A program made the translations under genes and the position numbers. Below the pieces are notes generated by a model. It worked only from the letters and a program-made list of their open reading frames with translations. It ran no database searches and was not told the DNA's origin. Below, piece after piece: positions 32,895 through 34,253 of a DNA stretch of 64,000 nt; position 1 is the first letter of the stretch, and each line of letters starts with the position of its first letter. This DNA comes from Octopus sinensis (lineage: Eukaryota): the NCBI RefSeq assembly GCF_006345805.1, contig NC_043004.1:77748001-77812000 (forward strand), read 5' to 3'.

Positions 32895-34253
32895 GATTTT
32901 TTATTACCCATAAAGGGGACAATACAAACATTGGGGACATAAAACATCACAATTACACAAAGTATGAAAAAATGAAATTTTGAAAATGAAATAATGTAAG
33001 TGATGCTAACGGCCCCATCCGCTAGCATCACTTACCTGTCATTCTTCCCTATACCGGAATGAAATACATATAGTCCTCTAGTTTAGATTCAAATATTCTT
33101 TCCAATGCAGTTATTCTTTCTTTTTCAATTTTATGCCCAACCAATTTATAGTTTTTCTTTAAAAATTCCTCCCTAAGTTCCTTTACATGATCTTCAGAAA
33201 TTACTGCGAACATTAACCCCCGCCTTGTCCCAGCTGTCATTCTATTCCACCTTCCCCCATTCTTTCATTATTTCCCGTATTTCTTCTGAGTTCCAAATAC
33301 CAAGAATATTGGGCCTAGGATTTTTAAAGTTATATTGTGTGTTTGCTGTCTCTTTCTTTTTGTTTTCTTGTTGGTGGGGAGCGGGTGGGTTCACTGTCTG
33401 CAGGGGAGGGGTGGACCTCAGAAGGTGCGGGTGGTGTTGGGGTGGGTTGGGGTTCAGAACGCTTTGCTTTTTTCCTTCTCCTTTTCATCCTTCCCGTTCT
33501 TTTGGTAATTCCTCCTCTTCCGTTGTATTCTGTTCCTCCTCGATTTCTACATCTCTTTGTGGTTCCAATCTTATTTCCTTTGATGGGGGAGGGCAGTTAG
33601 CTCTTATGTGGCCCTTCAGGCCACACTTGTTACAGCAAGGAGCTATGCCCTCCACCCACACTCTCATAATAATGTTTCCCATTTTAATGTTTTCTGCTAG
33701 TTGATCCAGCACTTCAGTTTCCGCTTGTACATTCATTTCGAGAACTGCATCTCCTCAACAATTTCCACTCCGACCACCTCAACCTTCCCCCTTCACCTGC
33801 GCAAACCCTGCACGCGATGGGCCCCCCTTCACGCCATTCTCCTCTCCCCTGCGGCGGTGACAACTCCACCCCACCGCCGACCCCCCCGACGAAATCCCGA
33901 CAACTTGGCAACCCAGCCAGATCCATTTCCCCCTCCACCGACCCTGTTGCTCGCGCGCACGTAGTTCCCAGTTCTTCACCCATCTTCCCCCAGCCCCCTC
34001 CAGCTCCCCCCACAGAGGTTGACAAATCCGACACACTGAGACCCTCAAACATACCTCGCCCTGCCATCTATCCCCCAGGGAGGGGCAGACCGCCCCGCCG
34101 TCCGTCCCAACACAGACAGACAAAAATCGAAAGAACCGTCCAATAATAACCCTTAACAACAACGTTTAACAAAATCAACAAATTCACTCAAAGCAGCCAC
34201 TCACAGGTTCAAAAAACCACGTCCAAGCCAAACTGACATCCAACAAACACTGA
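32895..34253 (-). mobile_element. Tx1-type ORF1-only element, copy B (5' part A>G hypermutated)
   Basis: Same 5' start as copy A (TCAGTGTTTGTTGGATG). Zinc knuckle CNKCGLKGHIRANC, stop at 33049, then directly a Tx1-like 3' end (..ccctttatgggtaataaaaaa). Confidence 0.75.

What the first reader, a model, noticed from the sequence alone, without database searches (positions are those of the whole stretch)
33750..34190. Genome-fixed A-to-G hyper-edited retroelement copy next to its unedited sibling (ADAR editing written into DNA)
Seen: hand alignment of 32411-32790 (copy A) with 33751-34130 (copy B) gives roughly 70-75 T>C changes on the + strand (A>G on the element sense strand) in about 375 bp. 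There are only about 17 other substitutions, of which 3-4 are C>T. Whole T-runs convert (acctttttga > acccccccga). Ts followed by C (sense-strand A with a 5' G) are mostly spared. The protein shifts K/E/N>G/R/S (MARRNMFENL > MAGRGMFEGL; FVKKVGGEVK > FVGGVGGGVE). Established: ADAR hyper-edits dsRNA and disfavours a 5' G, inosine is copied as G by reverse transcriptase, and coleoids have exceptional A-to-I editing. Inference: a hyper-edited transcript was retrotransposed in the germline, so editing acts here as a heritable, TE-inactivating mutagen. Copy A is likely the ancestral state because it and the rest of copy B are K/E-rich.
Basis: partly seen in the sequence, partly recalled or inferred. 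Interest (0 to 1): 0.92.

Follow-up and report, generated by a model that had tools for sequence, protein, structure and literature searches.

The report
RNA-edited retroelement copies fixed in genome
A small jumping gene here, and several of its relatives elsewhere in the same genome, carry dense one-strand bursts of A-to-G changes with the signature of the RNA-editing enzyme ADAR, most likely because edited RNA was copied back into germline DNA and inherited.

Summary
Copy B has 71 A>G changes at 134 sense-strand A positions in about 400 bp, against 11 of 242 in the rest of B. Other copies keep A, so B is the derived state. The 5' neighbour order is U>A>C>G, as for ADAR. The changes stand in contigs of two public runs, both guessed to be DNA and carrying two organism labels, so they are inherited and not an assembly error.

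The element is an ORF1-only (HAL1-like) non-LTR retroelement. Among 128 sampled loci that hold it, 7 loci (8 units, plus one DNA duplicate) carry such blocks. All are sense-strand A>G, and they lie mainly in the 5' part.

Best reading: ADAR hyper-edited the element RNA, and reverse transcription wrote it into the germline. The double-stranded partner was not found, TE inactivation was not shown, and the 3' neighbour bias differs from a published octopus motif.

ADAR scars are known in avian retroviruses, and APOBEC scars in vertebrate ERVs. My 10 searches found no paper on inherited ADAR-edited non-LTR copies. This scan noted the same pattern in other genomes.

The parts
33751..34170 (-). Hyper-edited block in the 5' part of copy B (5' UTR end and ORF1 start at ATG 34067): 71 of 134 sense A are G; GC 62% against 42% in copy A
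   Evidence: spanned by run contigs of X1 and X4
32894..34235 (-). Copy B: ORF1-only non-LTR retroelement copy with a 295-nt internal deletion at 33752, an unedited 3' part with a CCHC-like knuckle (33622-33637) and an AATAAA/short A-rich tail (about 32897-32909)
   Evidence: (zf-CCHC weak, below cut-off)
34236..34253 (.). 18-bp target-site duplication, upstream copy (end of the 5' part of repeat U)
   Evidence: the same duplication flanks copies L002 and L003
32876..32893 (.). 18-bp target-site duplication, downstream copy, joining B's tail to copy A's 5' end
32259..32875 (-). Copy A: unedited 5' part only (ATG 32728) of a sibling copy; 6 A>G at 137 A columns over 32411-32810
34254..34449 (-). 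5' part of a separate high-copy short repeat (U) that is the insertion target; unedited
   Evidence: (520 candidates, 40 scored)
34450..34513 (.). 64-bp outer duplication (3 mismatches), upstream copy, inside an ISXO2/Merlin-type transposase remnant
   Evidence: the transposase-like reading on this side is by eye
32195..32258 (.). 64-bp outer duplication, downstream copy; the transposase remnant continues to 32037
   Evidence: (DDE_Tnp_IS1595, E 1.5e-7)

Best explanation
Copy B is a germline retrocopy of an ADAR hyper-edited RNA. Shown: B belongs to an ORF1-only non-LTR family, has a tail and an 18-bp target duplication, and carries a derived, sense-strand-only A>G block with 5' preference U>A>C>G; six other loci of the family carry the same kind of block. 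Inferred steps: (1) the 5' half to two thirds of the element RNA became double-stranded, probably with an antisense RNA from another copy, because no inverted partner or long hairpin was found; (2) ADAR turned 20-55% of the adenosines there into inosine; (3) the reverse transcriptase of an autonomous Tx1/L1-type LINE primed at the unedited 3' tail and read inosine as G; (4) the copy inserted in a germ cell and was inherited. The 295-nt deletion may be the enzyme skipping within the duplex.
For: Direction and strand: 71/134 against 11/242. Pooled over 8 blocks, B included: 520 A>G at 1503 A, against A>T 20, A>C 9, T>C 27 of 819 T, G>A 34 and C>T 32. The blocks were chosen for A>G excess, so this spectrum is partly circular; the neighbour motif is not. 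Motif in the blocks other than B and the duplicate: 5' U 132/249, A 254/632, C 65/261, G 42/568 (p 6e-50); 3' G 191/528 against A 141/630. That 5' G is the resistant neighbour matches ADAR (PMC8586724 and PMC5625713, passages); the full order U>A>C>G is recalled. Of 14 cluster rows from 12,209 windows, 10 are A>G or T>C and all 10 are sense A>G; the other 4 are weak C>T or G>A rows. One very young unit has 101 A>G against 2 G>A relative to its nearest relative. Inheritance: X1 and X4 contigs. ADAR-family deaminase domains are present in the genome (17 exon-level matches). The element shares a 28-nt 3' end with the neighbouring APE-RT LINE. A second edited unit has a 239-nt deletion inside its block.
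Against: No double-stranded partner was found: no inverted match in the 7 other edited loci fetched or around B, and the longest predicted helix in the sense RNA is 13 bp. The 3' neighbour preference here is G (39% of edited sites against 31% of available sites). Porath et al. report A enrichment and only 20-25% G for octopus hyper-edited reads (PMC5625713, passages); with copy A as reference B shows no 3' bias (p 0.69). No RNA was examined. The one raw-read run laid 0 reads (no test), X10 (about 6x) left 33780-34199 uncovered, and the run kind 'DNA' is the tool's guess. None of 29 copies of the autonomous LINE showed a block in its 3' part. In mammals, ADAR1 restriction of L1 is reported not to depend on editing (PMC12925331, passage).
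Confidence: 0.78

Rival explanations
1. ADAR is the cause, but the edited stretch is a patch: the reverse transcriptase switched from an unedited RNA to a second, edited RNA, or an edited cDNA recombined into an existing copy.
For: B's block ends exactly at a deletion, and there is a short duplication near its 5' edge. A and B join at the 18-bp duplication. Several edited units sit in tandem arrays.
Against: Six of the 8 edited units have no large deletion and are collinear with their relatives. In the C24 unit, editing continues on both sides of its deletion.
Confidence: 0.1
2. The reverse transcriptase itself put dC opposite A in bursts, for instance under unbalanced nucleotide pools, with no deaminase involved.
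For: This would also give sense-strand-only changes confined to retrocopies (inference).
Against: The 5' neighbour pattern is strong (G 0.07, C 0.25, A 0.40, U 0.53). A>G makes up 520 of 549 changes at A. The 3' end, which is copied first, is spared in all 8 units.
Confidence: 0.05
3. A DNA-level clustered mutator acted on the inserted copy: an error-prone polymerase of the pol-eta type (A>G after A or T, recalled) or adenine deamination in an RNA:DNA hybrid.
For: The 5' A/U preference fits the pol-eta motif (recalled). ADARs can edit DNA in hybrids in vitro (PMC12925331, passage).
Against: All 10 A>G or T>C rows follow the element's sense strand, whichever way the copy lies. 5' C differs from 5' G (p 2e-11). 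A>C and A>T are rare. Editing the first-strand cDNA would give sense T>C, which stays at background (27 of 819). The flanking repeat U is untouched.
Confidence: 0.05
4. An assembly artefact from RNA reads or from polishing.
For: The run kind is guessed, and X1 may be the assembly's own sample.
Against: X4, from another study and organism label, holds the block with its own later substitutions and deletions. One edited locus has a 3.6-kb DNA duplicate at 95.7% identity.
Confidence: 0.01

Closest known systems
ADAR-type A>G hypermutation recorded in retroviral DNA (RAV-1 U3, Felder 1994; avian leukosis virus inverted repeat, Hajjar and Linial 1995; HTLV-2/STLV-3 in culture)
   Same: Dense A>G (nearly 50% of A in the avian cases) written into DNA by reverse transcription of edited RNA. 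Seen only as passages of two reviews (PMC12925331; PMC8586724); Hajjar and Linial itself was not held.
   Different: Those are exogenous LTR viruses in infected cells, in one case with an inverted repeat. Here it is a non-LTR, ORF1-only element, inherited, found at several loci, with no inverted repeat found.
APOBEC 'DNA editing' footprints in vertebrate LTR retroelements (Knisbacher and Levanon, PMC4866542)
   Same: Strand-biased hypermutated retroelement copies fixed in genomes and polarised against the family (passages).
   Different: G>A from cDNA deamination, in LTR elements; reported absent from 19 invertebrate genomes; the main text has 0 occurrences of 'ADAR'. Here it is A>G in a non-LTR element.
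ADAR hyper-edited RNA clusters in repeats (Porath et al., PMC5625713)
   Same: Clustered A>G with depletion of G upstream; exceptionally abundant in octopus (passages).
   Different: Those are RNA-against-genome differences, not inherited. The reported invertebrate 3' preference is A; here it is G.
HAL1 (half-L1) non-autonomous retrotransposons
   Same: Non-autonomous, encodes only ORF1 (PMC5753468, passage). A young copy here has one open frame of 497 codons from stop to stop and no RT-length frame, with weak ORF1 similarity and a shared tail with an APE-RT LINE.
   Different: HAL1 is defined as a mammalian L1 derivative. This family is an independent analogue; its parent clade (Tx1/L1-type) is assigned from recall, with no tree.

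Membership tests
ADAR hyper-editing signature | Clustered A>G far above every other change | tested here: met
   71/134 against 11/242; 520 of 549 changes at A
ADAR hyper-editing signature | Confined to the transcribed (sense) strand | tested here: met
   10 of 10 A>G or T>C cluster rows are sense A>G
ADAR hyper-editing signature | Depletion of G at the 5' neighbour | tested here: met
   B 11/41, p 8e-6; other blocks 42/568, p 6e-50
ADAR hyper-editing signature | 3' neighbour preference of the lineage's ADARs | tested here: inconclusive
   G-favoured, as in the mammal and reptile group; the published invertebrate motif favours A
ADAR hyper-editing signature | A long double-stranded RNA substrate covering the block | tested here: inconclusive
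   No inverted partner in the fetched loci and no long hairpin; antisense RNA not examined
ADAR hyper-editing signature | Inosine in the RNA and dependence on ADAR | not testable with these tools
   Needs stranded RNA data or knock-down; deaminase domains are present in the genome
Germline non-LTR retrocopy | 3' A-rich tail and target-site duplication | tested here: met
   Tail and 18-bp duplication
Germline non-LTR retrocopy | Present in DNA of independent samples | tested here: met
   X1 and X4 contigs span the block; kind guessed as DNA; X10 and X13 uninformative
HAL1-like ORF1-only element | ORF1 only, no endonuclease or RT | tested here: met
   About 1.5-1.7 kb unit; one long frame in a young copy, sense strand scanned
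HAL1-like ORF1-only element | Descent from an L1-clade element | tested here: inconclusive
   Shared 28-nt tail and weak tblastx similarity to the neighbouring LINE; no tree built
APOBEC-edited retroelement | Sense-strand G>A relative to the family | tested here: not met
   The family state is A and B is derived

The most novel reading that the evidence does not exclude
In this lineage, germline ADAR is a routine mutator of non-LTR retroelements, an invertebrate counterpart of APOBEC editing. An antisense RNA pairs with the 5' part of the element RNA, at least one copy in twenty of this family enters the genome hyper-edited, and such copies are dead ends. The genome would then hold a datable fossil record of germline editing.
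Probability: 0.35. Interest if true: 0.88.

Novelty: new variant of a known kind. Interest (0 to 1): 0.74.

Why it matters
A-to-I editing is normally treated as not heritable. Here it has most likely been written into the germline several times in one retroelement family, in old copies and in very young ones. A 2016 review says a role for ADAR editing in suppressing Alu retrotransposition by mutation had not been determined (PMC4982230, passage). This family makes the general question countable: the rate of edited insertions, their position along the RNA, and whether edited copies ever leave offspring. The blocks also record which RNAs were double-stranded in germ cells. A practical point: such copies drop to about 74% identity with their siblings and would be misdated or misfiled as old repeats.

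Tried and rejected
Searching with B's edited block found no close copy: the best other match was 75%, so B has no visible offspring. No edited block has a close relative in the sample (best 74-88%; one block gave no long match), except the C6 pair, a 3.6-kb DNA duplicate counted once.

A first rough scan (24 rows with overlapping loci) also flagged L057-L060, L071, L082 and L088. Of these, L057, L071, L082 and L088 were examined and rejected as subfamily differences or simple repeats; L058-L060 are near-identical to L057. L080 (8 A>G against 1 G>A) is unresolved and not counted. Two T>G rows (L010, L070) were not followed up.

Inverted-partner searches and folding found no duplex. The autonomous LINE showed no block in 29 copies (3445 windows), but these were the best matches and covered only the 3' part. 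A comparison with an RTE-like LINE was left open because no loci came. The transposase search returned mostly 50-bp hits and gave no useful DNA-transposon control. Raw-read run X13 laid nothing, and X10 did not cover the block.

Literature: ten searches showed no paper on inherited ADAR-edited non-LTR copies. Carmi et al. 2011 and Hajjar and Linial 1995 were not held, most subscription journals are missing, and no supplements were read. Those of PMC4866542 (note S4 on invertebrates, tables of other mismatch types) could bear on novelty. Passages of PMC8096273 and PMC2873906 added nothing on inherited A>G copies.

Full report
Observation. Copies A and B align over 377 columns at 33751-34130.

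Direction. The window lies in G000 (2.72 Gb, 13,516 contigs). I projected 27 other copies on one frame. Against the majority of the five nearest, the block 33751-34170 has 71 A>G at 134 A columns, B's 3' part has 11 at 242, and A over the same stretch has 6 at 137 (p 2e-27). The 27 copies carry G at 2-15 of these columns (each covers 67-71 of them), and A at 4. B is therefore derived. The fraction edited by 5' neighbour is U 14/16, A 36/53, C 9/16, G 11/41 (p 8e-6). By 3' neighbour G is 26/37 (p 0.048), but there is no 3' bias when A alone is the reference (p 0.69). A search with the edited block found no copy above 75%.

Is it in DNA? Ten of 24 listed runs hold part of the stretch; I laid four. 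X1, possibly the assembly's own sample, has one 629-nt contig over 33649-34285 with 2 other letters. X4, from another study and organism label, has one 634-nt contig over 33601-34254 with 9 other letters and 27 gap letters. It keeps 66 of the 71 edited sites by the listed rows, and 4 gap letters could not be placed. X10, a third label at about 6x depth, holds near-identical pieces of A and of B's 3' part but nothing over 33780-34199, which proves nothing either way. X13 laid no reads. The kind 'DNA' is the tool's guess; depths of 35-50 at unique sequence and thousands at repeats fit whole-genome DNA (inference). The block, and its junction with the deletion, are thus inherited and older than the split between the sources of X1 and X4.

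Anatomy. The element is a 1.5-1.7 kb unit that ends in an AATAAA/short A-rich tail. A young copy has one open frame of 497 codons from stop to stop, with a CCHC-like knuckle and no RT-length frame. It shares a 28-nt 3' end (93%) and weak ORF1 similarity with the APE-RT LINE at 35.4-39.9 kb. It is thus an ORF1-only, HAL1-like non-LTR element (definition from PMC5753468, passage), probably moved in trans (inference). A subfamily at 99% identity exists (297 candidates, 40 scored). On the minus strand the locus reads: 64-bp duplication (34450-34513); 5' part of a high-copy short repeat U; 18-bp target duplication (34236-34253); B's 5' end; the edited block; a 295-nt deletion at 33752; B's unedited 3' part and tail; the 18-bp duplication again (32876-32893); the 5' ~620 bp of A; the 64-bp duplication (32195-32258, 3 mismatches); an ISXO2/Merlin transposase remnant. 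Copies L002 and L003 sit in U at the same site with the same duplication. B therefore either inserted in front of A at a preferred target or joined A through that repeat. A looks like a sibling rather than B's parent (read by eye).

It is not a single event. I merged 218 sequences (217 loci and the window) into 158, 666 kb in all; 128 hold the element. I scanned 12,209 windows against their five nearest relatives for all 12 mismatch types. Of 14 cluster rows, 10 are A>G or T>C, and all 10 are sense A>G; 2 C>T and 2 G>A rows are weak (11-12 changes per window). The blocks, with borders set by eye, are: B 72/134 A; C6 67/252; C18 21/101; C3:149.7 Mb 87/259; C24 two tandem units 79/163 and 31/111; C3:134.7 Mb 143/430; C8:1.48 Mb 20/53. 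That is 8 units at 7 loci, plus a DNA duplicate of the C6 locus. It amounts to about 5% of sampled loci. The searches favour unedited copies, but they are not a random sample, and one locus came from a search with B's edited block. Pooled, the blocks show 520 A>G against 20 A>T, 9 A>C and 27 T>C of 819 T; this is partly circular because the blocks were picked for A>G. The neighbour motif is independent of that choice. Without B and the duplicate it is 5' U 0.53, A 0.40, C 0.25, G 0.07 (p 6e-50) and 3' G 0.36, C 0.30, U 0.28, A 0.22 (p 1e-5). One C24 unit has 101 A>G and 2 G>A against its nearest relative, so it is very young. It also has a 239-nt deletion inside its block, making 2 of 8 units with a large deletion. 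The two C24 units share 20 of 26 sites and may not be independent. In all 8 units about the last 400 nt or more show no excess. Several were found with 3' queries, which partly explains this. No block confined to the 3' part turned up among loci found with 5' queries, which is suggestive only. The autonomous LINE showed no block in 29 best-matching copies over its 3' part.

Mechanism. Shown: derived, sense-only, A>G-pure, 5'-G-avoiding blocks in tailed retrocopies, inherited, in a genome that has ADAR-family deaminase domains. Established: ADAR avoids a 5' G (PMC8586724 and PMC5625713, passages); inosine is copied as G (own knowledge). Inferred: the element RNA paired over its 5' part with an antisense RNA, was hyper-edited, and was copied from its intact tail by the partner LINE's enzyme in a germ cell (0.78). 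The partner strand is the weak link. A patch from a second, edited RNA keeps ADAR as the cause (0.10). Reverse-transcriptase error (0.05), a DNA-level mutator (0.05) and artefact (0.01) fit poorly. One result stands against a simple match: octopus hyper-edited reads are reported to favour A at the 3' side, with G at 20-25% of sites, whereas here G is 39% of edited sites against 31% available.

The inactivation claim is not shown. No edited block has a close retrotransposed relative in the sample, which fits dead ends, but most copies of any such family are dead ends (own knowledge). B also carries a frameshift and the deletion, and A>G cannot create stop codons.

Known and new. ADAR-type A>G written into DNA is known from avian retroviruses and from HTLV-2/STLV-3 in culture (review passages). 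Inherited hypermutated retroelements are known as APOBEC G>A in vertebrate LTR elements and were reported absent from 19 invertebrate genomes (PMC4866542, passages). A 2016 review calls a mutational role of ADAR on Alu retrotransposition undetermined, and ADAR1's restriction of L1 is reported not to depend on editing. Ten searches showed no paper on inherited ADAR-edited non-LTR copies. The library lacks most subscription journals, two relevant papers were not held, and no supplements were read. This scan has four unchecked notes of the same pattern in other genomes and none in this genome. Verdict: real, a new variant of a known kind, recurrent in this family; interest 0.74.

Noticed in passing
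window 35400-39900 (+): Degraded autonomous APE-RT LINE (zinc knuckle, endonuclease, RT), 96% identical to a young family with 2228 candidates; it shares its 3' end with the ORF1-only element. No A>G excess (29 A>G, 29 T>C, 26 G>A).
   Followed up: partly
L188-L217: A 99%-identical subfamily of the ORF1-only element with an intact long frame: a recently or still active HAL1-like family.
   Followed up: partly
window 34236-34449; L092-L120; L002, L003, L007: High-copy short repeat U, with possible short terminal inverted ends (by eye). One subfamily of the element sits in it at a fixed site with an 18-bp duplication: target preference or a composite element.
   Followed up: partly
window 32195-32258 and 34450-34513: Unusually long 64-bp duplication bracketing U+B+A inside an ISXO2/Merlin transposase remnant.
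   Followed up: partly
L210 2960-5888 (C24); L127 3450-6800 (C3); L007, L089, L090: The element often forms head-to-tail arrays, and edited units sit next to unedited ones, as in the window.
   Followed up: partly
window 33832-33885 in run X4: Two 9-nt deletions and smaller gaps in the edited block of the related source: the new G-runs may be unstable after insertion.
   Followed up: no
L080 2300-2700 (C10): Weak sense A>G excess (8 against 1), possibly a lightly edited source passed on to a subfamily.
   Followed up: no
window 15995-16699 (+): GIY-YIG endonuclease domain (E 3e-7), probably a Penelope-like element remnant.
   Followed up: no
window 30368-30958 (+): APE endonuclease remnant of another LINE.
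   Followed up: no
L010 2467-2577 / L070 3517-3627: A T>G cluster (13 of 20-21 mismatches) in the first scan; it did not reappear in the stricter scan.
   Followed up: no
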